From: Owenia fusiformis
Taxonomy: Eukaryota
Length of the DNA stretch: 64,000 bases
Reading direction: 5' to 3'
NCBI GenBank assembly: GCA_903813345.2
Contig: CAIIXF020000001.1
Coordinates: 10,912,001 to 10,976,000, forward strand
In this document: positions 49,001 to 64,000 of the stretch, piece after piece
Layout of the letters: every line of letters begins with the position of its first letter
How positions within the stretch are numbered: position 1 is the first letter of the stretch
Program-made: the position numbers and the translations under genes
Notes under the pieces: generated by a model
Database searches by the model: none
What the model saw: the letters and a program-made list of their open reading frames with translations, nothing else
Told to the model about the DNA's origin: nothing

Positions 49001-49692
49001 AATGTGGAAGATCATTTTAAGTGTATACATTGAGGCGTGCTCTTGGATAATTAGAACTGCAGACAACAGTATGTGTTTGATTTTATTCCAGGTTATTCTT
49101 TTCATGGTTTGCATCTGTTGCTCCAATTGTCCATGGAGTTGCACATAATGCATAGCTTAATTCTGACCAGATATTGGATCTTCATTTCAATAACGCTCAA
49201 ACCTACACACTGTTTATGTACATTATAAATAATATTTCTACCATCTAATATGCACATGATTGTATTTACATTATGTGGATTAGCCTTTACATGTACTGTA
49301 CTTATATACACTCACATCAAATTATATGCACATCTTTGATGACACTTGCATACATATTGCCTTACTCACTTGTAGACAGTTGTCTTATATTTACATGGGA
49401 CAAATATGATTAAATCCACGCAGAATACTTGTATTCATATAAGAACTAGACACTATGTACACTCTATATTATAAGGGACTAGGTAAATATTGCGATGTTG
49501 TCCTGAAACATGAGTAATTACATCCCCAATTTACCCTACCCCTAAAAAGGAAATTTAATTCTTTTTTGATTTTTCAAATCTAAAGATTCTTCTGTTTGAA
49601 GATCAGTGTACTGATAGCCATCCCCCAATTTTAATTGGGGGATGGAGTTTGATAATCATGTACATCGATATATTTACCTTCTCCCCAAGTAC

Positions 49693-52600
49693 TTATATAT
49701 CAGGTGGTCTATTATCACCCATGATTAATGCATAAATTATCCAATAGACTACATTAAATATGAGAAAAGATATAGGGAAAACACGGCGTGATATTTTGTC
49801 TATTGTCCTAGCCTTGTGTTTTCCCTCTAAATCAGGCATTATAGCTGTATTGTTTCTTATACTTGAGTCATGTGGCATCGTTTCAATAACCTGAAATAAC
49901 AGAACAATATTCACATTAGTTTTTCAGTATTGATCATATTCCTGTCTGATAAAAGTAGATTTGTATGGAATCAGTAGACCTTGATTTAGTATTGAATACA
50001 GCATTAAAAATCATTAAAAATCTGTACCGCATATAATTACCTCGCCAGCTTCTGAGTCTTTTTTGTTCTTGCTCACTTTTCTTCGTATCATGTTTGGGCG
50101 AATACTTTTCACTTCTTTTCTAGACAGTACATTAACAACAGCAAATTCAAGTAGACTAGTGAATACAAAGAGTAAACACACAGACATCCAAACATCTATC
50201 GCTTTGACATAAGATACCCTGGGCAGGGAACTAGTGGCCCCAGTAGACTGGGTAGTCATTGTGAGCACAGTTAGCAGTCCTAATGAGACACGGGCTGGGA
50301 TTGCATCAATGTTTATCCAGAATGCGACCCAGGATAATATAACTATAAGTATACTGGGGATATAAATCTGGATCAAGTAGAAACCAATGTCACGTTTTAG
50401 CTCAAAGTTGACTTGTAGGCATGGATAGGCTCCTGAAAGGAAAGTGAATGTAAAGTAAAATTAAGTGCTGAAATGTTGATTTATTTCCTGTTCAATAAAT
50501 TATTAAATACAAATTCATACACTGAATTTAGAACATACTTTTACAATACAATTCCTGTATGTTATTGCTACTCATTCACAAAATGAATCTCCATATCAAA
50601 ACATTTCATGTTACATCTTATTGGAGTGCTATAACAATCATATTACCTAATCTTGAATAGTGAAAACCCATGTTGCAGTGATCTGAATAAAAGATTTAAT
50701 GTCTTCTCTTCATGCAAAAATGTTATCATTAAGCTTACTATCTTACTATCAGATACGGAAGTGTTGTGCCATTGCCTGATTTCAACATTTCTTTTTAGTC
50801 TTAGATAATTATATGAAATCAAAGGTGAAATAAGCATCTTTCTCACAATTCACAGATTATTTTATTCAAATTAAAAATGTGTAATAATATAAAAGGCAAA
50901 CATGTGCATCTTTCGTAATAATTAGTCATGCTTTGTGCTGCAAGGATACTAGCTCATAAACATCTATTGGTATGGAATCATGTCATGGAAAAATCTGTTA
51001 AGTCCATATTCTAAATCTATTCCTATACTAATGACTAATAGTATTTAACAGACAACAAACTGTTTTAAAGCACATTAATTTTTTGCATGTCTTCATTTTA
51101 AAACAAATAAAAAGTCATCTCAAAATGTTGGGATTGAAACCAAATAATTCCTTCACAATTCAGAATTCTATAGTGGCAGTTGCACCATTATATGAAAAGC
51201 ATTTTTTGTATATGTATCAAAATAATTCGCAAGTTATGGTGTCATATTGTTATGAAGGCATTCAATCTGCAATCCAATATTTGTTTTTATCTCAGTCTGC
51301 TTTGATATCACACAATTTAGCATAAATATAATTGATTGCTTATTGTATCAACATACATGTTGATCTTTTGAGACATTTGAGGTCTTTTAGTATAGAGCCA
51401 AATAATTTCACAAAAACGATGTACATGCATTCAGATAGAGTCTTATTATTTAGTGAAGGTAAAAAATGCTGTTTGATGTCCTCATTGAAACTGTTATCAT
51501 GTTATGTATCTTACTTTCAACATGTCTGTTATTGTTTTCAAAAACATGCACTACTAAAACATGTAAATTTCATAGATTAATCCATTTCATATCTTAGTTA
51601 ATAAAACATTCTAAGAACATATTCTAAGCTCAAAGTTAAATGTCATTTAGGATGACTTGAGAAAAATCCTATGGTGGACTTTTGGTTTTAAAAATGATTT
51701 CAAACCATTGTTAGAACACCATTAGTGGCCAGATCATGCTTATAAATTAACTGTTTGGCATTCTATATGTTGTGAAAGTAAAAAAGCTGGAGAAATATTA
51801 GATCTATTATGGATTAAGTAAAAAATATTCTACAACCCTAATGTTTCTCATTTTGTGATTTGTTAATACTTTCCCTAGGATTTGTGTGTGTAGTTTGATA
51901 TTATTATGCTGTTTATCCTACTTTTGTTAGCTGATCATTTTCAAAAAAGTAATTTAAATTTTTTTCTCGTAGATATGTACAAATAGCCAACATTTTGTAA
52001 GTGTTTTATATTTTTCTTTCTGTGTCATTTCAATAACAAATATCATGCTGTCAGTTAACAAACATTCTCTGACCAAAAAAGGATTTTCAAGTTATGTTTA
52101 GGAATCATTCACAATAACAGAAGTCCTCTGGTACAACAAACTTTGCGTACATACAGGAGCCAAAATAATGAAAACAACATCAATAGCAGGTAAACACTCA
52201 CAAATTGACATTAATAGTAATGGAGGGACACATATAAATTGTGCAATGGAAGAAGGATCTAAGAATGCATAAATAACCTGTAGAATAGTTTTGACTACAA
52301 TCTTTTAGATGAGCCTCCACCAGTCTGAACTGTGGCATTTCCAATGTACCGTCGTGCGCCACAGCTTTGTCCCACCAATTGAAATATATTGTGTCCATTG
52401 TATAGCCAACTTAATGATAAAAGTACAGATATGCAATGTGCAATTAAGAATCAACAATATTTAAGCACAGTAAAATGTGTACTCATGTATACTTTGATAG
52501 GATATAATCGCAATCATGACATGTTTTTATCCTCCTTGTTCTTTATGATGTAGGCATACTTTCTTATACTGATTTAAAATGATAAATCTGAACAGTCATG

Positions 52601-55600
52601 TTTACCATTATCTAAGTATACATAGTACAATGAACATGGTACATGTACTTATACAAATGGATATATTATCAATATTCAATGAAAGCACATGCAGGATTAG
52701 TTCTGAAATGATGATACTATGCTTCTTCAGGATATTGCCAGTTGTCCTCTCAAGTTTTTGAAGTCATGTAGTATAACAAACAGAAAGGGAGTATAGTTTT
52801 CCTAAAATATATAGAAGATTATCAATAGTTGTTCAGTGGGTTTGCATAGTATAGAGGTGCAGGTGGTACTACATACATGCCTTATATATTATGCACAATA
52901 ATAACATTGGGGACATGAATCCAAGTCATTAGTGCTACCTGAGCTATTTTCTTATTTGCCATATGAACCAAGTTCGAGAAAAGGGATGATATCACAAAAA
53001 ATCCTTTGATATATGTATTTTGTTTTATAAATCTGAAAAAGCAATAAATTTTACTGTAGTGCAGACTCAACTTCATGAAGTGACATTGGTATTGAGTTTT
53101 TAATTTTAATACTGATCATTCTACTTCATCAACCCCAAAATGTTACTAGAAGGATGGTTTTATTGGTTATATTTATTTCATTAATAATGTTAATCCCCAT
53201 AATCACCCAAGGGCATTATATATAAGAAGGATTTTCTTGTGATTTGGTTCATATACCAATTATTATGCAATAAAACTAAGAATGCCCAATAGGAGCTTAT
53301 CAAAATGGCAATTAAAGATAATTCATAGGTAGACTAATATTGCGCATTCTGTCTGTTTATTTGTTATGATGGTTTATACAGTGCACCTGTGTCCAGGTGG
53401 CAGTATAAAGCAATACATCAAGCACTATTTCCTCACACCATTCTGTTATATCCAAAGCCAAGTTAAGCTTGCATGCCAAACTCCTTAACAGATATATCTG
53501 GTTTACCTGTGGAGTAATTTTGAGAACAGTTCTTTCTGTGACTTTCAACTAGTTTAAACTGAGGCATTTCTAAGTTTTTTTCACGTTCTACAGCAGGGTT
53601 CCACCACTCAAATTTAATTGTATCCATAGTGTAACCAACTTGAAAAGAATCAACTCTGAGTTAGATTAAATGAGTCACAACTGTAGTAGAAGCAATGAAG
53701 TTCCTTGTACTTTGTTGTAGACAGTACTCAATATATAACTGCAATAACCAAGGTGCCATTAAGTTGTTACCACCAGGTGGCTAATTTGGGTCAGATAACA
53801 TGGCAGACCATGGCAGATCAATTTTAGTGAATCATAACTTAACAAATACTGTATAGACTGATTTCATTTTTTTAAAATCACCTACATGATTTCAGAAGTT
53901 CAAACCTGACTTTGAATTAAAGATTTGACCTTCAATGACCTTTTCAAGGTAATAAAAGGTATTTTTACAACTTGCTTCAAATTGACCAATTTTTTCAAAA
54001 TCATATACAAGTTATTAGAAGTTCAAATCTGACTTTAGAGAGTTTACCTTCAATGACCTTCTCAATGTCAAAAAAGGTTAAAAAGGTCTTTTTCAAATTG
54101 AAAATTTGAAAAATTCTTTTCAAAATCATCAACTTCCACAGTTCAAATCTGACTACAAACTTGACCTTCAATGACTTGCTCAAGGTCAAAAAGGTATTTT
54201 TTCATCTTGCTTCAAATTGACCAATTTATTTTTCAAAATCATCTACAAGTTCTCAGAAATTCAAATCTGACTAAGATTAAACGCATAATATTGTGAGCAA
54301 CTAGGTGGTGACATTTTGTCATATTAATGCCTTGTCAAAAACATATTTCTTATTGACTATTTCTACTTGCATCGAGTGTATTTCAACAATCAAATAAAAT
54401 GCATTATTTAGCTCAAATGATAATATTGAGTAATATTAATGTCTAGTGGAATATGTCTAGTGGAACATAGCTGAAAATATGTCTATGCTTCCAATTACAG
54501 ACGGACATGGGAGTAGCGCATGTAATGCACAGTACGCCTGTGCTTACTAAATGAATTTGAAAAAAAATGTTTTAAAATGCAATAATTTGTTTGCACATTT
54601 TTTGATGATTCTATATTTTTATATTTAACCATTAGAAGTTTCATCAGAATAGAACTAAACGCTCAAATTGCTTCAAATAAAAAATTCCCAAGAGAGCATA
54701 CCTGGACTCCCCAAGATGTGCCACCTTTAGCCACGCGATCAGACCTACACGGCGATCAGACCAACTCGGCGTACCAACTCAAAATATATTCCTACGACCT
54801 TGAAGAATATTGCCATTTCATCCTCAATGTAATAAATGTTTCAGGATGACCATTTGTGTATTGACATTCACCTTAATTTGAATGAAAGACTTTTCTATTT
54901 AGTAATGAGTTTTGAGACTATATTTTAGATATTAACATATGTCAAATAATGACAAGAATCCTATTGAAAAGATGATTTTCTTTGATTTTCATGACTCACT
55001 TTTTGGGGAGATGGGGCAAATTTAATAGATATATGGGAATAAAAATGTTAATTAAACAATGTTGATTCATGCATCATCAGATATACTAGATATAGTATAA
55101 TTAGTGGTGTTTTATGGTTAATATGCCCGTATTTTTAGTTCAAGGTCACTCTAGGTATTGGAGAGGTTAAAATATCTAAGGCATGCTTTTTACTGGGGAG
55201 GCTACTACAAGAATGAAAATATCAGTCAAAATGCATAGATTATGTCAAAAGTATATATGTATAAATTCAAGAGGTAAGATGGTGAATAACACAGCATTTT
55301 TTAGTGTTGAATATTACATTAACTATTTAAGTCTACTGTTATTTCTCAATTTCAATCATATTGACAATAACTGGCTTGTAAATAATCCTAATTCCATTTT
55401 AACAGAATCAGATATATGATTAACCATTTAAGTACTTCATTTTTAAACCAAAATTTCTTTTACAAAAATACCTTATTCACAACATCATAATATGCTATAT
55501 TTTTACAGAAATGTTTGAAATTAAGTTACAATTCACAAATTGTAATATTACATATTGTTTTACACATCCCTACTGTTTTACATGTGTTTCACTATCTAAG

Positions 55601-58600
55601 CCTATGTACATACAAATTGTGATGGTGCCAAAATAAAATTAAAAATCTAATGAAATAATATATTGTGCATACTTACACGACTCTATCATCATTGGACAAA
55701 ACTGAGTATCCAAAGGATACTTAGCAAGGTTCATTGGACAAGACAGAGTTGCAGTGATTCTGTAATATATTAAAATGCTCACATTCAAAACTCTATCAAA
55801 CTAAATCTATGTTTACAATTACACCTCTAAAACTGACTTTTAAAATGAAATAATACAAAATGTAAATTAAAGGAATTCAGTCTTGAACAGTAAAAATGAA
55901 ATTACATTCCCTAAAATATTTTGTTTGTTCTAGTGTATTCGGATAAGGTCATTAAGTCAAAATTGATAACTTTAGAATATAAGACATGCCTTTATACAAC
56001 TTAAGTATGGTTTAGAATAAAATCAGAGCAAATCAGAATTGGGATCAAATTAACGTTTGAATTCTCATTTGATACAAGCTAGGGTCTGTTTTCATTTCTA
56101 CAAACGTATGAACTAGTGCTTCTAATAGTTTTAACTTGCTAATTTTTATTCACATACACGTGTTAATTGACAGTGATATGGCTAAACTGGTTGCGTGACT
56201 ATTATACAATACTAAAAAATCTAATAGAAAAAATGAATATGTGACATGATCACAACAATGCAGTGATTATTCTTTGTAAATCTGATTTCCAACTTACAGC
56301 TCTCAATCATTAACGGGCAGAATTGAGTATCCATAGGGTATTTTATCAGATTCATAGGACATGATAATGTAGTTGTAATCCTAACAATAATACATATGAT
56401 AAAGTACATGATGATATGATAAAGTACAGTAACAATTGTCCAATGAAAAGTTCAGTGGCTCATTAACTAAATATTATTTGAAACTTTTTAAGTGGAACAC
56501 CTTTTAGGTACCAAAGGTATTCTACTCACACAGGATTTACTGTACATCTGAATTTTACTGTTATAAAATGTTTCTACATTTCAGGATTTACTGGTAGAAC
56601 AAAATTCTATTGAATGCGTATTTGGGCTCTCAGATACTGCATTAAATATTAGGAAATGCCACTATTGGAAATAAACTTACTTCATTGCATACCATATTCT
56701 TCCATCCATATAAAGTCTCATTAGTCTGTTTGGTATTGTCACTGAATGAAATTCAGCCTTTTTCTCATTTCGGAAAAAAAGATCTGGTACCCATATTTCA
56801 TCCCATGTACCATCTGGTAATTTGGTCATCTCAGTTTTATCGCTTGGGTCACCCTTTCCAAACTTTATGCGGGGATCATACCAGGATTGCCTGAGATATA
56901 TGTTGACTGAGTAATCCTGGAATATGTAGACCATTAAAAATGCTAGAAATGCTTAATGTTTAGAAAAGTACAGAAATGTCCAGTTAATCGTTAAAGTCCC
57001 CGTCTAAAGTTTAAAATTTTTTTTTTTCATTCATTTACTATTTGTCAGGACTTAAAAAGTGATTTTAGAGATTTTGAACAAAAAAAAAATTTTGAAAAAA
57101 AAGTTGTGAGCATTTCATTTCTCAAATATTCAAATTTCCCGCCATTTTTCAAAAAAAGTTGAAATTTCTTAATCATCAAATATTTCTTAATGGATTTCAA
57201 AAAAGATTATCTTTTTAACACCAATGCAAAGGTTGAACAAAGGACACACTATTTCAATAATAAAATGCCATATTTAATGGGCCACTTCAATGTTTTAACA
57301 TATCAAAAATATTTTGAAACATTAGTGATGTCACTAAGGTACCAAAAACTTTTTGAAAAAAATTCAAATTTCTTTTTCGATGTCAATCTTTTCTAAATAT
57401 GTTAGACTTTCATAAAAAACCAATGTTGATTGTCTAACCAGGTAAAAAGGAAGAATAAATTATGTTTTAAATATCTTTGTACCATTGGTTTCTATGAGAA
57501 CTAAAATTTTGAAATGCATTTTTCTCAGAACCATTTTCATGCACCGATAAGTTCAATTTTTGCTTGTTTATCAACCGATTTTCTATTTTTTCGGCAAAAA
57601 ACATGGGAGGATGAATGCTATGCATTGATATGAATTGTGGCTAATTAGAAGATATGAGTGACCTCTAAAAGTTGGTTTTAAATAAATTTACAAATTTTGG
57701 AACAAAAAGTCTATCAAAAAACACTTTTTGAAATTTAAAAAAAAAGTTTCACATATCACACTTTGATAACATTGGGTAAGACTACAATATAAGCCAAAGT
57801 GGTTTAAACTTTACATGGGGCCTTTAAGAAAGTTACTGAAATGTAAAATTATTTGATGTCCAATACATACTGGGGCAACAGTATCTTGTAAGGTTTGACA
57901 TAATTTTTTGAAGAAATTCCATTCCATGAATTATTTAGTAGCAATTCTTTACATTATATATTTGTATAGATTTTTATTCAAAAAAGATATACAAAAATCT
58001 TGAAACAGGGAGAATAACACCTTCAGTTTAACAAAGACTAGAAATACTGCCATTATTGGCAACATCAACAGTTAGGGTTGCATTGATTTAACATGACATA
58101 AAATGACCTAATTGTTGTGTATTCAATATTTTTGTTTAGTGGTTTATTAAATCAAAATGTTATGAATATGTATCATATTCACGGCCATAAATCGACAGAA
58201 TGAATTGAGGGATGAGGTGATGATTTCAACTAAAAAATTCAACAAATCTGCAAGATTTATTTTTTTCTTGAGAAAGTTTACTAATGAATTTTATAATGAA
58301 TAGGTGAAAAATATGCTGACATCGTCTTATATGATTTTTTTTAACTATTGCGCTTTTAAGGCTTAAGATCTATTTATAAAGGCGCAACGTCACTCTTTTT
58401 GCTATAAATCAAGAAGTGGAGATATACACAAGCTGTGATAAATCTATATAGAGCATCATCATCACAAAATATATGCGTTGTTGTCTTTTTGATATGAGTT
58501 GCATACAAAACTTTATGAAAAAATAGTGAAAATGATACAATGAATTGAAGGGGGATTAACAAAAAATCTCCACTCACTGTATTATTCTGATTTTTTTGAT

Positions 58601-60812
58601 ATTTTTTTATTACGTTATAACGTCATTTTTTAATTATGTATTATCTTAATAAAAAGTATTTTATCTTGTTTATTGAAAGCTATAACTTACCATCGTTTGT
58701 TCACTTATTGAATAGAAACTGTTTATGTAGATTCCTATCTTTACTTGAGTTGCAAGATCTGAAATCAGATAAAATGCATAATGGGAACAATCGTTTTCGA
58801 TCAAAGAATGTTTTGCTCAAGAGCATGGGGTTCAATAAATGTTAGATTCATTCCTGCCTAAGAAAATCTGTTTAGCTTTATCAGTTTTTACACGTCAACA
58901 TATCCTACATTCTAATTATTATAGCATTTAACGTGCATGTTATTATTTTGAGTTTCATTATATTAGTCAAACACACTTATTTATTCTTGTAATTGTTCAT
59001 CATTACACTTTCAGTTTCTGAAATTAGGAAAGATGTGTTGCACTATTATGTTTGTCCTTCACAAAAATTCAATAATCTTCATTAATTTCCTGGAATCTTG
59101 TTGGATTAGAGGTTATTAGGTGCCCGACCACCTATTTGGTCTTATAAGAATCTCTACTAATTTCTTAAATTAAAGGCTATTCAGACCTTTACCTTTAAAT
59201 TGCTGAAGCTAATGAAATAAAAAGGGTAGGATAGTACTTATTGAGTCTAAATTAAGTTAGCTTACATATTATTCAAGGGAAGATCAATAAGTATTGGTTG
59301 CTTTTTCACAGATACTTATACTTAGATTTCTTCATAAATGGTGCATCATCCAAATAATTCTTTCCAATCCAAGCACCAGTACTCTATATACCCTTTTATA
59401 TATCTCATAGTTATTTCCATTGTATGATACCACTAGTTCATGCATTTCATAATGACATGTTTTCATGGTATTTTAGTTTTTTCAGATGTCGTTCATGAGA
59501 CCTTCTCGTGGGAAAAAGGATTTTCCTTCACAATCAAAAAGTGAAATTAGCAGCATATGAATATGAATATGCTTAAATGAAGCATGTCAAAAATATGAAT
59601 ACATTTACAAATCAAAGTTATTACACCAGTCAACTACATTACATCTACATCATCTAATGCATGTAAAGGATGAATACATTTTATGATTTGATTTTCTTTA
59701 CATAGTTATACTTGTTTCTCTCAATCCTTTGTTTTATTCCACTCTCTTTGGGTTACATGAATGTTTTTCTTCCTCCAGAAAGCTATAGGTATCCATGGAA
59801 CGCATTTGTGCATTTAATGACTATTTGACTTGTTGAAGTAGGACTTTTGTACATTTTTGTTTGATAATACTTCACATAACATCATAATCAATAGAACATC
59901 TTCATTTCAAAGCCTCTATAATAGTTTATTGTAAAATGAAATGCATAGTACCATAACATGTATGCGTTTATTTATTCCTTTCCATGTGAATTGGAATGAA
60001 ATAAGGGCTTCACCAGCTGTTTCTATGTGTAATCACTTAGAAAAGAGGAATCAAACTTTTTTGATTTGTGGTAATTCTGCAATTTCTAAGTTAATTGAGT
60101 TATAATTTTGCAAAAGTTCTTTTTCAGTTTTAATAAATTTGGGTATTTTGTTAATCTTAATAACTTTGTCAAGATAGTGACTGAGGGAATAATATGGATG
60201 TTTTTTCCTATAAATATTGCTTCAAATATTTTACAAATGTCCCTTGGTCTTCTGGTCTTGGATTGTGATATTGGTTCTTGAATGGTGGGAGGAAAGGGGG
60301 ATTAGACATTGTTTCTTTTCACGTTAGATCATGGTTTTGGGCTATATGGGGTTTGTTTTTCTTGACTGGTATGCACTTAAAGTTTGCTTTTTCTTGCTAA
60401 GTTCCATTACAACTTTTGGTCCTTTCCCTTTGGCACTTGTGCTTATATATTTACACTCTTTATCCTTTGCTGCAACTTTAAACTATACCACTCATATCAG
60501 GGCCAAGCCAGGATCTCAACATAGAGGAAGTAAATTGAAATAAATGAGGCCAAAATTGATTTTTAAGGCATGGATTATACTTCATTTATAAGGTTTGAAC
60601 TGAACATGATGTAGCAAAAATAGGGTACACAATTAGTAGTAAATACAAAATGTATATCAATTAATTGGTGTAGAACATTGATTTTATGCATAGTGCATGT
60701 ATCTAATAGTATATTCTTTGTTCCATTGGGCTAATGCATAAACTACTTACCTCCATGTGGGGACTCTCGTTTGTCATAACCAGCTATCCATTCTCCCCTG
60801 ATTCTAATTCCT
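49693..60812 (-). CDS. Cys-loop ligand-gated chloride channel subunit (glycine receptor alpha / GluCl-like); signal-peptide exon not found in the window
   Basis: Exons 60812-60751 (GYDKRESP), 58758-58691 ([20 protein letters not shown]), 56916-56681 ([28 protein letters not shown]), Cys-loop exon 56380-56298 or 55759-55677, 52409-52278 ([19 protein letters not shown]), 50432-50041 (AYPCL, M1, PARVSLG M2, M3), 49890-49693 ([11 protein letters not shown]4, stop). Phases are consistent. The PAR motif indicates anion selectivity, and the second Cys pair in loop C is as in GlyR/GluCl. Confidence 0.93.
53765..54315 (+). mobile_element. Copy of the 45428-46055 Helentron-like family in a channel intron
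   Basis: Shared blocks ataactt.aacaaatactgt.tagactga, gaagttcaaatctgact and cataatattgtgagcaactag.tggtgacatttt. Confidence 0.65.
55677..55759 (-). CDS. Alternative Cys-loop exon B of the chloride channel (83 nt)
   Basis: ttacag|A ATC ACT GCA ACT CTG TCT TGT ... ATA GAG TCG T|gtaagt gives [27 protein letters not shown]. Confidence 0.9.
56298..56380 (-). CDS. Alternative Cys-loop exon A of the chloride channel (83 nt)
   Basis: tgttag|G ATT ACA ACT ACA TTA TCA TGT ... ATT GAG AGC T|gtaagt gives [27 protein letters not shown]. Confidence 0.9.
56995..57823. mobile_element. Kolobok-like MITE in a channel intron
   Basis: ttaa|AGTCCCCGTCTAAAGTTTAAA ... TTTAAACTTTACATGGGGCCT|ttaa. Confidence 0.7.
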
Positions 60813-63800
60813 CTGCAAGTGTAACATGATATTTTAATATCATTTTTACAACCAATTGGAAAATGATAAGTCATACAAATGGAAGATGTATTTTAATAAT
60901 ATTTTACAATTCATACATATTAAATATTATCTTGAATTTAGTGATATTTAAAATGATAACTATCTATGTTGATCAAAACATCTATCAAATGGTTTGATAC
61001 TGAACGCACTACAATAAACAAGTAATGTACAAGAAATCTGCAATGCATTGAATTTGATATAGAGTGAGGTGAAAAATCCTTAAATTGATTGTGAAGTAGA
61101 TATAAATCCAATACCAGAGTAAAATGGTTTTGGCTCCATTGAATATATTTTGTCAAATTGATTGACACTTCTCACAAATGGTATATTCATTGGAATCCGT
61201 GCATGCCACAATTTACAATACTCTAAATGTTCTAATATAATAATGTAAAGTAGATGCATGCATTGTTGAATATAACTGTAGTTTATAAGTGCATTAATGA
61301 GAAAGACATGGTAAAGATACATGAAGTCATAAGTGGAAAGATTGAATATTTCATTTTTCTTTTGTGTCAGCTGGAATATATCCATGCTTCATTTTTATGT
61401 AATATTATGAATTATAGATATGAAAATGATGATAATTGTTAGATAATGTAATATTTGAAAGACAAAGAACCCATAAACTAAAAGTTAAAATACAAACAAT
61501 CATATGTCTAAATATGATGACATTTGGAATTTTCTAAACTAATGTTGATCTTCTGTCATCAACATCCACTTACTTAACTTCCTCATCTCCAAAATGCTTT
61601 TTAGAGTTCCTGATGCATTAAAATAAGGACAGTCTCACTATATGTGCATTTACATTTGCATATGTGCATGTCTTTGCGATATTAGAACATGTCTTTCCAA
61701 GTAAAAACATATACAGTTATATACATATGTGTAGGATGGAGTATGTTATTATATTTTCAGTATGAAAATAATTATTTTATTGATTAAATTAGTTTGAAAT
61801 GAATAAATAATTCAATAATACATGTACACTGATTTTTTTTAAAATAAATAAACACAATTATAAAAAAACTGTATTTTAAGATAAATTAACAAATTTTTGT
61901 TTTTGGTAAAATTAAACACCTTTTTCAATTATTGTTTTACATATACAGAATTGCATTTCCAGAATTTGGGAAATGCATTTAGAAAATGAATAAAACCTTG
62001 CATAATACATGTATGATGTTAGTCATATCGTGCTCATTTGGTGTTTTTAAAATGGTTAGACTGGGCCTTAATTTTATAGTCCCCTTGATCCCTAAGTAAC
62101 ATTTATTCTAAGAAAAATAAGATGACTGAGTTATCAGAATTACTTGGCTTAGCACATAATTTGAGTTATGGGCATTCCAAGTCCAATCCTAATAATACTG
62201 TTTAAGCTAAATCAGACTTATTACATTGTGCTTTAACTTTTGATATTCTGTGTAATAAGTCAAATGGTATATTTAATAGTCAGGATTAATGGGAGAGGAA
62301 GGATGTGCTATGCGACGTAATTGCAACGGTTTTAGACATGTGCACATCATAAATAACACCCAAGAACTGTTAGCTGTCAATACAGGATCATAAATATGTC
62401 ATAGATGCAGAGTTGTGAATGATATGCATGCAAAAATCTCCAAAAATCAATGGTGCCCAGGGACTCATCTCACTGATTAGATAGTTCCATATCTATTAGA
62501 TTTTCTTCATTTAAAATTTCTTTTGGAGTTAATCTGTAGATGTGTTTTATTTTACATAATGAGGTATTCCCCTGGGTCTATTTATATCATGACTAAGAGA
62601 CACTCTGTCAAATAGAGAATTTTTCATCGGAAAACATTCTGCCAAAAATAAAATTCGTATGAAATTTAGAATACATTTGCAATAATCAATTAGCTTAAAT
62701 TATATTCCTTTTTAAATCTTAACACTGTGTTTCTAATTTTCTTTTTATCTTTTTATGCTTTTTAAAAATGAAATTGTAAAAACTGTGGGTTATAAAAAAA
62801 TTCTTCAATATCTCATAGAATGGCTATTGGATGGGTTGACATATCGCATACAACCGGAAAAGGTGTCAAGTTTTGTTTCTATGTATCTTTGAATAAGCAA
62901 CTCTCAAAAATGTCATCTCATGGATGTATACTTTTAACAGGGTCATTTTATATTTTTTGCCAGAAACAAACTTATTTTTTCCTGGCCTTAAGCTGTCTTT
63001 ACTGCTTATACCTTCATAAACTTTGGAATGTTTTTTAAATAATTAAGTGAATAGTTTTTACTATTCCTGGAATGGCATTGTTATCTGTTAAAATTAAAAT
63101 CATCCTGTAAAAATATACCAATGTCCATCTTAATGGTATTAAAATGGTATTTTCCCTAGGATTCATGACACTAAACTTTGTAAACAATGAATCAAATGCC
63201 TAGAATATAAATAAGATAAAAAGTAAAATCTCACATGAATTTGATTAAATTGTACTTTCACAAACAGGGAGCAATTTTTCCAAATTATACAAATGAATAT
63301 ATAAAATGTATTTCGAAGATTTTTTTAGTCTGAGCCTATATATTACCAAATTTAACTGCTTATAACTTTTATTATGGAAATAAATGATTTAATTCAGTAT
63401 TTTAATGGCAAAAATGATGATTTTGTTTTTCACTGCCATCTTTATGTCACAATCAAACTGAGAAATGAATCATGTAAAATATAATATAAAGAAAGGAAAC
63501 TTCAAAATATTATATTTTCCTCAATCCTCTCCCCAGGATTTCATCTCATCTGGGTGCAAAATTCTTATTTTCAAAATTTAGACCAAATTTGGACCAAAAA
63601 TGCCTATTTTCATTTGACATTTTTGATAGGGTGCAAATGGATTCTCAGGTGGGTGTATGCCTATTATTACAATCTCAAGTGGTTGCAGCAGCCAGTTGCT
63701 TTAATGCTGGACGATCACTGGACCTATTATGATACTTTCATAATATTTTAATCATAGCATTTTCATGTCAATAATGTAAGAATTTAAGAATTTAAAGATA

Positions 63801-64000
63801 AAATAAAACATTTAAAGATTTTTTTAAAATACATTATAGTATACAGCATTTCCAGTTTTAATCAAAATATTGAATATACACAGAAATACATAAAAGAAAA
63901 ATAGAACATCTTGTCAGACATACATATTCAAGTTAATATTTATAATTATTGTTTAATTCATTGCTTTTCAAAATTTTCTAAAAGTAATTGTTCATCCCGT

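What the first reader, a model, noticed from the sequence alone, without database searches (positions are those of the whole stretch)
55677..56380. Two tandem, apparently mutually exclusive exons encode the Cys-loop of a GlyR/GluCl-like channel
Seen: two 83-nt exons, 538 nt apart, both phase 2-to-1 with ag/gtaagt sites. They encode [27 protein letters not shown] and [27 protein letters not shown]. Of 27 codons, 4 change the amino acid, 16 differ synonymously (including Ser AGC vs TCG) and 7 are identical. Because 83 is not a multiple of 3, including both exons or neither would frameshift. Established: the Cys-loop couples ligand binding to gating, and the familiar alternative exons in insect RDL/GluCl and GlyR alpha2 lie in other extracellular segments. 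Inference: an old duplication with both copies under purifying selection, giving splice-level tuning of the gating interface.
Basis: partly seen in the sequence, partly recalled or inferred. Interest (0 to 1): 0.75.

Follow-up and report, generated by a model that had tools for sequence, protein, structure and literature searches.

The report
Alternative Cys-loop exons in annelid channel
A glycine-receptor-like chloride channel gene of the annelid Owenia fusiformis carries two interchangeable copies of the exon that encodes its Cys-loop, plus a previously unnoticed duplicate of the next exon; this is a real but familiar way of making channel variants by splicing.

Summary
Two 83-nt exons (56380-56298 and 55759-55677, minus strand) have ag/gtaagt sites and encode 27-residue Cys-loop segments. 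They differ by 4 replacement and 16 synonymous codons. The gene is an Owenia fusiformis GlyR/GluCl-class subunit (P0012, 100% match). The public, RNA-seq-based annotation already holds four isoforms, two using each copy. A spliced transcript contig in run X9 uses copy B. Including both exons gives a stop at the junction; including neither gives a stop in the next exon.

- The next exon (loop B, loop F and the start of loop C) is also duplicated: C1 at 53638-53507 and C2 at 52409-52278, 132 nt each. C1 is intact and constrained but appears in no annotated isoform.
- Alternative Cys-loop exons are already documented in insect nAChR alpha4 (PMC2064938).

A Lineus longissimus (nemertean) relative has two Cys-loop versions and three next-exon versions in RefSeq isoforms. 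Exon trees group the copies within each gene, which favours independent duplications.

Verdict: a genuine mutually exclusive exon pair and a new member of a known kind. Interest is moderate.

The parts
56298..56380 (-). Cys-loop exon copy A (83 nt, phase 2-to-1). It encodes the derived version, with YPMD and CPLM.
   Evidence: Sequence and splice sites. Used in annotated isoforms P0012 and P0121. Not seen in the X9 contigs: its bin has depth 0.04.
55677..55759 (-). Cys-loop exon copy B (83 nt, phase 2-to-1). It encodes the family-consensus version, with YPLD and CPMM.
   Evidence: Used in P0122 and P0123. Inferred in spliced X9 contig record 3: record positions 1182-1264 (83 nt) are not listed in the table, and the bin depth of 8.03 equals 83 x 48.5 / 501. 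Consensus comparison.
53507..53638 (-). Exon copy C1 (132 nt, phase 1-to-1). It encodes loop B, loop F and the first half of loop C. It is unannotated, has an open frame, and has ag/gtaaac sites. It carries N where C2 and most relatives have D before the loop-C cysteine, which makes an N-C-S sequon.
   Evidence: Reads through to the normal stop with either A or B. Absent from all 4 annotated isoforms and skipped in X9 record 3.
52278..52409 (-). Exon copy C2 (132 nt, phase 1-to-1), the copy used in all known transcripts. Its donor is gttatt.
   Evidence: Present in all 4 isoforms and in X9 record 3 as piece 52277-52409.
56681..56916 (-). Constitutive exon upstream of the Cys-loop pair (ligand-binding domain, loops D/A/E region). 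It ends in phase 2.
   Evidence: Pfam Neur_chan_LBD, E 5e-16. tblastn. X9 piece 56681-56915. Acceptor.
50041..50432 (-). Exon encoding the end of loop C, TM1-TM3 and the PAR motif.
   Evidence: Pfam Neur_chan_memb, E 9e-35. X9 piece 50039-50431. Boundaries by GT-AG.
49693..49890 (-). Last coding exon (end of the TM3-TM4 loop, TM4, stop codon). The 3'UTR continues to at least 49213.
   Evidence: X9 piece 49213-49888.
61574..61609 (-). 36-nt cassette exon (12 residues near the N-terminus), included in P0012 and P0123 and skipped in P0121 and P0122.
   Evidence: Zero X9 depth in its bin.
60751..60812 (-). Constitutive N-terminal exon.
   Evidence: The X9 bin depth of 6.19 is consistent with an exon of about 64 nt at depth 48.5.
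58691..58758 (-). Constitutive N-terminal exon.
   Evidence: The X9 bin depth of 6.68 is consistent with about 69 nt at depth 48.5.

Best explanation
This is one Owenia fusiformis gene for an anion-selective, GlyR/GluCl-class pentameric ligand-gated channel subunit. An ancient tandem duplication of its 83-nt Cys-loop exon produced two copies, A and B, which are spliced in a mutually exclusive way.

Shown:
- Both copies are intact, have canonical sites, and have stayed under protein-level constraint.
- Each occurs alone in RNA-seq-derived public isoforms.
- Only single inclusion keeps the reading frame.

Inferred:
- Transcripts with both exons or neither are removed by nonsense-mediated decay. 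So exclusivity is enforced at least at the level of the frame.
- Whatever chooses between A and B in a given cell is unknown.

The four residue differences lie in and beside the Cys-loop. One is the residue between P and D in the conserved aromatic-P-x-D tip (M in A, L in B). Another sits two residues after the second cysteine (L in A, M in B). From established structural knowledge of the family, that tip packs against the M2-M3 linker and pre-M1. The likeliest effect is therefore a modest change in gating coupling, or in subunit assembly.

The following exon is duplicated too (C1 and C2) and encodes loop B, loop F and the start of loop C. Together with a 36-nt cassette exon, the locus could encode up to 8 subunit variants, of which 4 are documented.
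For: Identity of the gene:
- P0012 from Owenia fusiformis matches at 100%.
- Pfam LBD and TM domains are present.
- The best solved relatives are GlyR alpha3, alpha1 and alpha2, at E about 1e-113 to 1e-107.
- The C-x13-C Cys-loop, the PAR motif and a C-x10-C pair in loop C are visible in P0012.

The exon pair:
- Coordinates, sites and codon counts are confirmed.
- Codon-position identity is 78/93/30% and the flanking introns are unalignable.

Usage:
- 2 of 4 annotated isoforms use A and 2 of 4 use B.
- The annotation was built from RNA-seq with StringTie, Trinity, Mikado and PASA. The paper states that 31,678 of 31,903 transcripts are RNA-seq supported (PMC9977687, methods passage).
- X9 contig record 3 (2096 nt, depth 48.5) is spliced and its depth falls on B.

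Reading frame:
- A+B gives a stop codon exactly at the A-B junction.
- Skipping both gives a stop inside C2.
- All four single-inclusion combinations reach the normal stop.

Single gene: every other exon is found once in the window.

Parallel case: Lineus longissimus RefSeq isoforms combine 2 Cys-loop versions with 3 next-exon versions.
Against: - Direct read-level evidence for exon A is lacking. In the one lay call, the three raw RNA-seq runs (X14-X16, 6-12% of each read) gave essentially zero depth on every exon of the gene. The X9 contigs show only B. Use of A therefore rests on the public annotation alone.
- No junction counts, tissue data or stage data were obtained.
- NMD of the out-of-frame products is assumed, not shown.
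- The functional effect of four conservative-looking substitutions (T/A, I/A, M/L, L/M) is untested and could be negligible.
- The test for competing RNA structures did not complete.
Confidence: 0.8

Rival explanations
1. Only exon B is functionally used. Exon A is a rarely or aberrantly spliced relic, and the A-containing models are assembly or annotation noise.
For: The only transcript I could see directly (X9 record 3) uses B, and A's bin has depth 0.04. B matches the family consensus (YPLD, CPMM), whereas A is the derived copy.
Against: - A has perfect ag/gtaagt sites and an open frame.
- Its replacement divergence from B is low while synonymous sites are saturated. A long-dead exon would not show that pattern.
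- Two annotated isoforms use A, in a gene set the authors report as 99.3% RNA-seq supported.
- Contigs drop minor variants, so absence from X9 is weak evidence (stated in the output).
Confidence: 0.1
2. The A/B choice mainly controls subunit folding, assembly or partner choice in the pentamer, rather than gating of the assembled channel.
For: For the only characterised alternative Cys-loop exon (insect nAChR alpha4 exon 4/4'), the passages read say the changes near the Cys-loop 'may affect receptor assembly'. [quoted passage not shown] Owenia has several close paralogues on the same chromosome that could co-assemble.
Against: There are no data for this gene. The varied tip residue lies at the gating interface in solved GlyR structures (recalled structural knowledge, not tested here). 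The two effects are not mutually exclusive.
Confidence: 0.3
3. The two exons belong to two interleaved or overlapping paralogous genes, not to one gene.
For: None beyond the duplication itself.
Against: The upstream exon, the TM1-3 exon and the TM4 exon each occur once in the 64-kb window. The order A, B, C1, C2 is not that of a duplicated two-exon block. The four isoforms are identical outside the alternative exons.
Confidence: 0.01
4. C1 is a silent pseudo-exon: a duplicate that was once used but is no longer spliced.
For: C1 is absent from 4 of 4 annotated isoforms and is skipped in X9 record 3.
Against: - The frame is open, the ag and gt sites are intact, and every family-conserved residue of this exon is retained.
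- Codon-position identity to C2 is 79/79/37%. This shows constraint over most of the time since duplication.
- Relatives do use two or three versions of this exon: Lineus, Tubulanus and two Owenia paralogues.
Confidence: 0.4

Closest known systems
Insect nAChR alpha4 alternative exons 4 and 4' (Drosophila Dalpha4, Anopheles, Apis, Tribolium)
   Same: Two tandemly duplicated alternative exons that contain the Cys-loop cysteines of a pentameric ligand-gated channel subunit, both transcribed. They are attributed to tandem exon duplication (passages in PMC2064938; table in PMC8505678).
   Different: That case is a cation-selective nicotinic subunit in arthropods. This one is an anion-selective GlyR/GluCl-class subunit in an annelid. 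The two events are not homologous. The exon length and phase of the insect exons were not checked here.
Insect RDL (GABA receptor) alternative exons 3a/3b and 6a/6b
   Same: One gene holds two separate clusters of alternative exons in the extracellular domain, and the clusters combine freely. RDL exon 6 variants differ mostly near loop F (PMC2064938 passage), which is the region covered by C1/C2 here.
   Different: The first RDL cluster lies near loop D, not at the Cys-loop. Here the two clusters are adjacent exons. Use of C1 is not yet shown.
Lineus longissimus 'glycine receptor subunit alpha-2-like/beta-like' gene, RefSeq isoforms X1-X10 (P0041, P0128-P0136)
   Same: It is one of the two closest non-Owenia relatives (64% identity). 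Its isoforms carry 2 alternative Cys-loop segments and 3 alternative versions of the next exon in several combinations. In both species the residue between P and D in the Cys-loop tip differs between copies.
   Different: The copies group by species in the exon tree (Lineus a/b at SH-aLRT 98; Owenia A/B with paralogue P0040 at 93). So the duplications look independent, or homogenised. Only protein models were seen; no genomic DNA was available to me for Lineus.
Vertebrate GlyR alpha2 exons 3A/3B (recalled; no paper read here)
   Same: Mutually exclusive exons in the extracellular domain of the same receptor class.
   Different: They lie in a different exon, N-terminal to the Cys-loop.

Membership tests
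[quoted passage not shown] | Neur_chan_LBD and Neur_chan_memb domains | tested here: met
   PF02931 at E 5e-16 on the upstream exon and PF02932 at E 9e-35 on the TM exon. Both are precomputed for P0012.
[quoted passage not shown] | Cys-loop of two cysteines 13 residues apart, with an aromatic-P-x-D tip | tested here: met
   C-x13-C with YPMD (A) or YPLD (B) in both exon copies.
[quoted passage not shown] | PAR motif before M2 (marker of anion selectivity) and a second cysteine pair in loop C | tested here: met
   P0012 shows IPARV before M2, and C232...C243 spanning the C2/TM exon junction. The meaning of PAR is as stated in the PMC2064938 passage. The meaning of the loop-C pair is recalled.
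[quoted passage not shown] | Closest solved relatives are GlyR subunits | tested here: met
   The top 17 distinct PDB sequences are GlyR alpha1, alpha2, alpha3 or alphaZ1, at E 4e-113 to 8e-107. GlyR beta and GABA-A beta follow at about 1e-87 to 1e-89.
[quoted passage not shown] | Agonist identity (glycine, glutamate or other) | not testable with these tools
   Names such as 'glycine receptor alpha-2-like' are automatic. The Aplysia and Biomphalaria proteins named GluClAc2 are only about 49% identical. Electrophysiology is needed.
Mutually exclusive exons arising by tandem exon duplication | Adjacent exons of equal length and phase with homologous sequence and canonical splice sites | tested here: met
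   A/B: 83 nt, 85% amino-acid identity, ag/gtaagt. C1/C2: 132 nt, 71% amino-acid identity, ag/gt.
Mutually exclusive exons arising by tandem exon duplication | Each copy is found alone in mature transcripts | tested here: inconclusive
   A/B: both are found alone in annotated isoforms. B is also in a spliced contig, but no reads were seen for A. C1/C2: only C2 is seen.
Mutually exclusive exons arising by tandem exon duplication | Joint inclusion or joint skipping is not productive | tested here: met
   A+B and neither both give premature stops. This does not hold for C1+C2, which stays in frame. Owenia paralogue models P0033 and P0038 do carry two copies in tandem.
Docking-site/selector RNA-pairing control of exon choice (Dscam type) | Conserved complementary intronic elements that pair in competition | not tested
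   25 inverted repeats of 14-25 nt in 52000-56950 were listed without a chance benchmark. The duplex-energy test against shuffles timed out twice. No related genomic DNA was available for a conservation test.

The most novel reading that the evidence does not exclude
The Cys-loop exon and the loop B/F/C exon of lophotrochozoan GlyR-like channel genes are recurrent hot spots for tandem exon duplication. On this reading, Owenia and the nemertean Lineus independently evolved the same two-cluster layout. Insects did the equivalent in nAChR alpha4 (Cys-loop) and RDL (loop F). In Owenia the unannotated C1 exon would be a genuine, cell-type-restricted third axis of variation, giving 8 subunit variants. 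C1's N-C-S sequon would add a glycan at the base of loop C.
Probability: 0.35. Interest if true: 0.5.

Novelty: new member of a known kind. Interest (0 to 1): 0.36.

Why it matters
Splice-level diversification of ligand-gated channels is well studied in insects, where it affects pharmacology and insecticide resistance. It is barely described in annelids, nemerteans or other spiralians.

This locus offers a compact natural experiment. Four residues in the Cys-loop differ between otherwise identical subunits, and there may be a second switch in the agonist-binding loops. A parallel arrangement exists in another phylum. That allows a test of whether the gating or assembly interface is repeatedly chosen by evolution as a tuning point.

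In practical terms, the public Owenia gene model probably lacks one alternative exon (C1). Paralogue models that carry two tandem copies of that exon deserve a check.

Tried and rejected
- Whole genome. None is held for this window, so paralogous loci could not be read as DNA.
- RNA evidence. No listed holder is on record as RNA. The three raw RNA-seq runs laid (X14-X16) gave essentially no depth on any exon of the gene, so they say nothing about A versus B or about C1.
- C1 in proteins. A search of the protein collection with the 43-residue C1 peptide returned 'no candidate shares three 5-residue words'. P0012 shares at least seven such words with C1 and was not returned either. The blank is therefore a limit of the tool for short queries, not evidence.
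- Interleaved-paralogue idea. Rejected, because all other exons are single-copy in the window.
- Steric or U12/U2 incompatibility as the exclusion mechanism. Rejected: the A-B intron is 538 nt, and all sites are GT-AG with gtaagt donors.
- Competing RNA structures. Inverted repeats were listed but are unremarkable for 70% A+T introns. My duplex-versus-shuffle scripts timed out twice and I dropped the test.
- Earlier scan notes. None exist for this genome or these words.
- Wider distribution. 9 further multi-member clusters showed no within-species alternation at either exon. These were two Haliotis, one Patella, one Penaeus, one Bradybaena, one Steinernema-centred and three unnamed. The same holds for Lingula, Liolophura, Babylonia, Ostrea, Biomphalaria and Lineus cluster 4. 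This covers annotated isoforms only, so unannotated exons like C1 would be missed. Four clusters fetched (P0051, P0053, P0057, P0058), and the bird GlyR alpha3 cluster (P0240) fetched, were not examined.
They could show where this gene is expressed.
Full report
**What is there**

Read on the minus strand, the window holds two 83-nt units at 56380-56298 (A) and 55759-55677 (B). Each is preceded by ag and followed by gtaagt.

Of 27 in-frame codons, 7 are identical, 16 synonymous and 4 replacement, and 55 of 83 nt are identical. tblastn of either peptide against the whole window finds the other copy at E about 2e-13. Nothing else scores better than E about 0.8, so the pair is not chance and there is no third copy.

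**Which gene**

The TM1-TM3 exon matches an Owenia fusiformis protein at 100% (P0012, 434 aa, on a 62-Mb contig). Pfam finds Neur_chan_LBD on the upstream exon and Neur_chan_memb on the TM exon.

The closest solved structures are glycine receptor alpha subunits, at E 4e-113 to 8e-107. P0012 shows a C-x13-C Cys-loop, a PAR motif before M2 and a cysteine pair in loop C. It is therefore an anion-selective subunit of the GlyR/GluCl class.

The agonist is unknown. The database names are automatic, and the mollusc proteins called GluClAc2 are only about 49% identical.

**Exon map in the window**

All exons are on the minus strand, and boundaries follow the GT-AG rule.

| Exon | Coordinates |
|---|---|
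| 36-nt cassette | 61609-61574 |
| N-terminal exon | 60812-60751 |
| N-terminal exon | 58758-58691 |
| Upstream LBD exon | 56916-56681 |
| Cys-loop copy A | 56380-56298 |
| Cys-loop copy B | 55759-55677 |
| C1 | 53638-53507 |
| C2 | 52409-52278 |
| TM1-3 | 50432-50041 |
| Last coding exon | 49890-49693 |

The first coding exon is not in the window.

**Are A and B mutually exclusive?**

P0012's 90% cluster contains four Owenia proteins. Aligned, they are identical except for a 12-residue N-terminal cassette and the Cys-loop segment. P0012 and P0121 carry A, and P0122 and P0123 carry B.

The Owenia gene set was built from RNA-seq with StringTie, Trinity, Mikado, Augustus and PASA. The authors state that 31,678 of 31,903 transcripts are RNA-seq supported (methods passage of PMC9977687).

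I tried to see the junctions directly:
- The three raw RNA-seq runs with this species label had essentially no reads on any exon of the gene. Their depth comes from intronic repeats only.
- Run X9, kept as contigs, holds a 2096-nt spliced contig at depth 48.5. It joins 49213-49888, 50039-50431, 52277-52409 and 56681-56915.
- An 83-nt piece of that contig is not listed in the table. The bin depths place it on B: 8.03 = 83 x 48.5 / 501. A's bin reads 0.04.

So B is seen directly, and A rests on the annotation only.

Reading-frame tests show that A or B combined with C1 or C2 all reach the normal stop. A+B creates a stop codon exactly at the junction, and skipping both gives a stop inside C2. Frame-based exclusion, presumably through NMD, therefore fits. 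NMD itself was not tested.

**Age and constraint**

| Pair | 1st position identity | 2nd position identity | 3rd position identity |
|---|---|---|---|
| A vs B | 78% | 93% | 30% |
| C1 vs C2 | 79% | 79% | 37% |

Third positions are about as similar as random sequence of this composition. The flanking 200 nt of intron share no alignable similarity. Both duplications are therefore old, and all four copies stayed under protein-level constraint for most of that time.

**The second pair**

The ORF list and tblastn showed that the next exon also exists twice: C1 at 53638-53507 and C2 at 52409-52278. Both are 132 nt in phase 1-to-1 and share 71% amino-acid identity. This exon encodes loop B, loop F and the first half of loop C.

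All four annotated isoforms and the X9 contig use C2. C1 has an open frame, ag/gtaaac sites, and every residue that is conserved across relatives in this exon. The one exception is N in place of the usual D before the loop-C cysteine, which creates an N-C-S sequon.

Because 132 is a multiple of three, C1+C2 together stay in frame. Whether C1 is ever spliced in remains open. My protein search with C1 came back blank for technical reasons.

**Relatives**

The closest non-Owenia proteins are nemertean: Tubulanus at 62% and Lineus at 64%.

| Gene | Cys-loop exon versions | Next-exon versions |
|---|---|---|
| Lineus longissimus, 10 RefSeq isoforms | 2 | 3 (five combinations seen) |
| Tubulanus | 1 | 2 |
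| Second Lineus gene (P0055) | 1 | 2 |
| Owenia P0032/P0033 gene | 1 | 3 |
| Owenia P0036/P0037/P0038 gene | 1 | 2 |

Models P0033 and P0038 carry two next-exon copies in tandem. The Owenia P0062 gene alternates an N-terminal exon instead, and the closest paralogue, P0040, shows no alternation at these exons.

No alternation at either exon was seen in the annotated isoforms of Lingula, Liolophura, Babylonia, Ostrea, Biomphalaria and Lineus cluster 4. The same was true in nine further clusters of molluscs, a shrimp, nematodes and unnamed sources.

Exon-level trees group the copies within genes: {A, B, P0040} at SH-aLRT 93, {C1, C2, P0040} at 95, and Lineus a/b at 98. This favours independent duplications, or homogenisation. 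With only 27 and 44 columns, the resolution is weak.

**Where the differences fall**

B matches the family consensus (YPLD, CPMM). A is the derived copy (YPMD, CPLM). The four differences are at P0012 residues 170, 179, 183 and 190.

In the alignment to GlyR alpha3, these lie just before, within and just after the Cys-loop. By my recalled GlyR alpha1 numbering they correspond to positions 134, 143, 147 and 154. Position 147 is the residue between P and D at the loop tip. Lineus also varies that tip residue, with H versus F.

That the tip contacts the M2-M3 linker is established structural knowledge that I recall; I did not test it here.

**Comparison with what is known**

However, insect nAChR alpha4 has two alternative versions of exon 4 that contain the Cys-loop cysteines. 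They are conserved across four insect orders, and the suggested effect is on assembly (passages of PMC2064938; table of PMC8505678). RDL exon 6 variants differ mostly near loop F, which parallels C1/C2.

My literature searches found no description of such exons in annelid, nemertean or other spiralian GlyR-like genes:
- 'Owenia fusiformis' plus 'ligand-gated ion channel'.
- Aplysia, glutamate-gated chloride, alternative splicing, exon, cys-loop.
- mutually exclusive exons, glycine receptor, tandem exon duplication, annelid.

Subscription journals are mostly outside that library.

**Verdict**

The position is not unprecedented in the superfamily, and the isoforms already sit in public annotation.

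What this work adds is the adjacent C1/C2 duplication with an unannotated but constrained exon, the parallel two-cluster layout in a nemertean, and the frame logic. This is a new member of a known kind and of moderate interest.

Noticed in passing
window 53925-54273 (minus-strand intron between exons B and C1); broader high-depth zone about 53509-54510: A tandem repeat of period 118, with 3 copies and 70% matches. It is covered at depths of hundreds in all three raw RNA-seq runs, with many 'skips 121' and 'goes back' joints. It looks like a dispersed or satellite repeat transcribed from elsewhere, not part of the channel mRNA.
   Followed up: partly
window about 57016-58017, 60022-60522 and 63529-64000: These intronic stretches show high RNA-seq depth (tens to hundreds) at only 90-95% likeness, while the flanking exons have none. 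They are probably transposon-derived repeats expressed from other copies.
   Followed up: no
Owenia paralogue proteins P0033 and P0038 (no DNA available): These annotated models contain two copies of the loop B/F/C exon in tandem and in frame. Sister models P0032, P0036 and P0037 contain one. They are either real double-inclusion transcripts or assembly artefacts, and the duplicated binding loops are unlikely to fold normally.
   Followed up: partly
Owenia paralogue P0062/P0163/P0164 (other chromosome-scale contig): The isoforms differ by an alternative version of an N-terminal segment of about 20 residues, just after the signal peptide. This gene family therefore uses duplicated alternative exons at several different positions.
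   Followed up: no
window 61574-61609: A 36-nt cassette exon adds 12 charged residues near the mature N-terminus. It is present in 2 of 4 annotated isoforms and absent from the X9 contig. The closest paralogue, P0040/P0161, has a 23-residue optional insert at the same place.
   Followed up: partly
tool behaviour: the search for homologous proteins with a 43-residue query and lengths 'longer' reported that no candidate shares three words. Yet P0012 shares at least seven 5-residue words with the query. Blanks for very short queries should not be read as absence.
   Followed up: no
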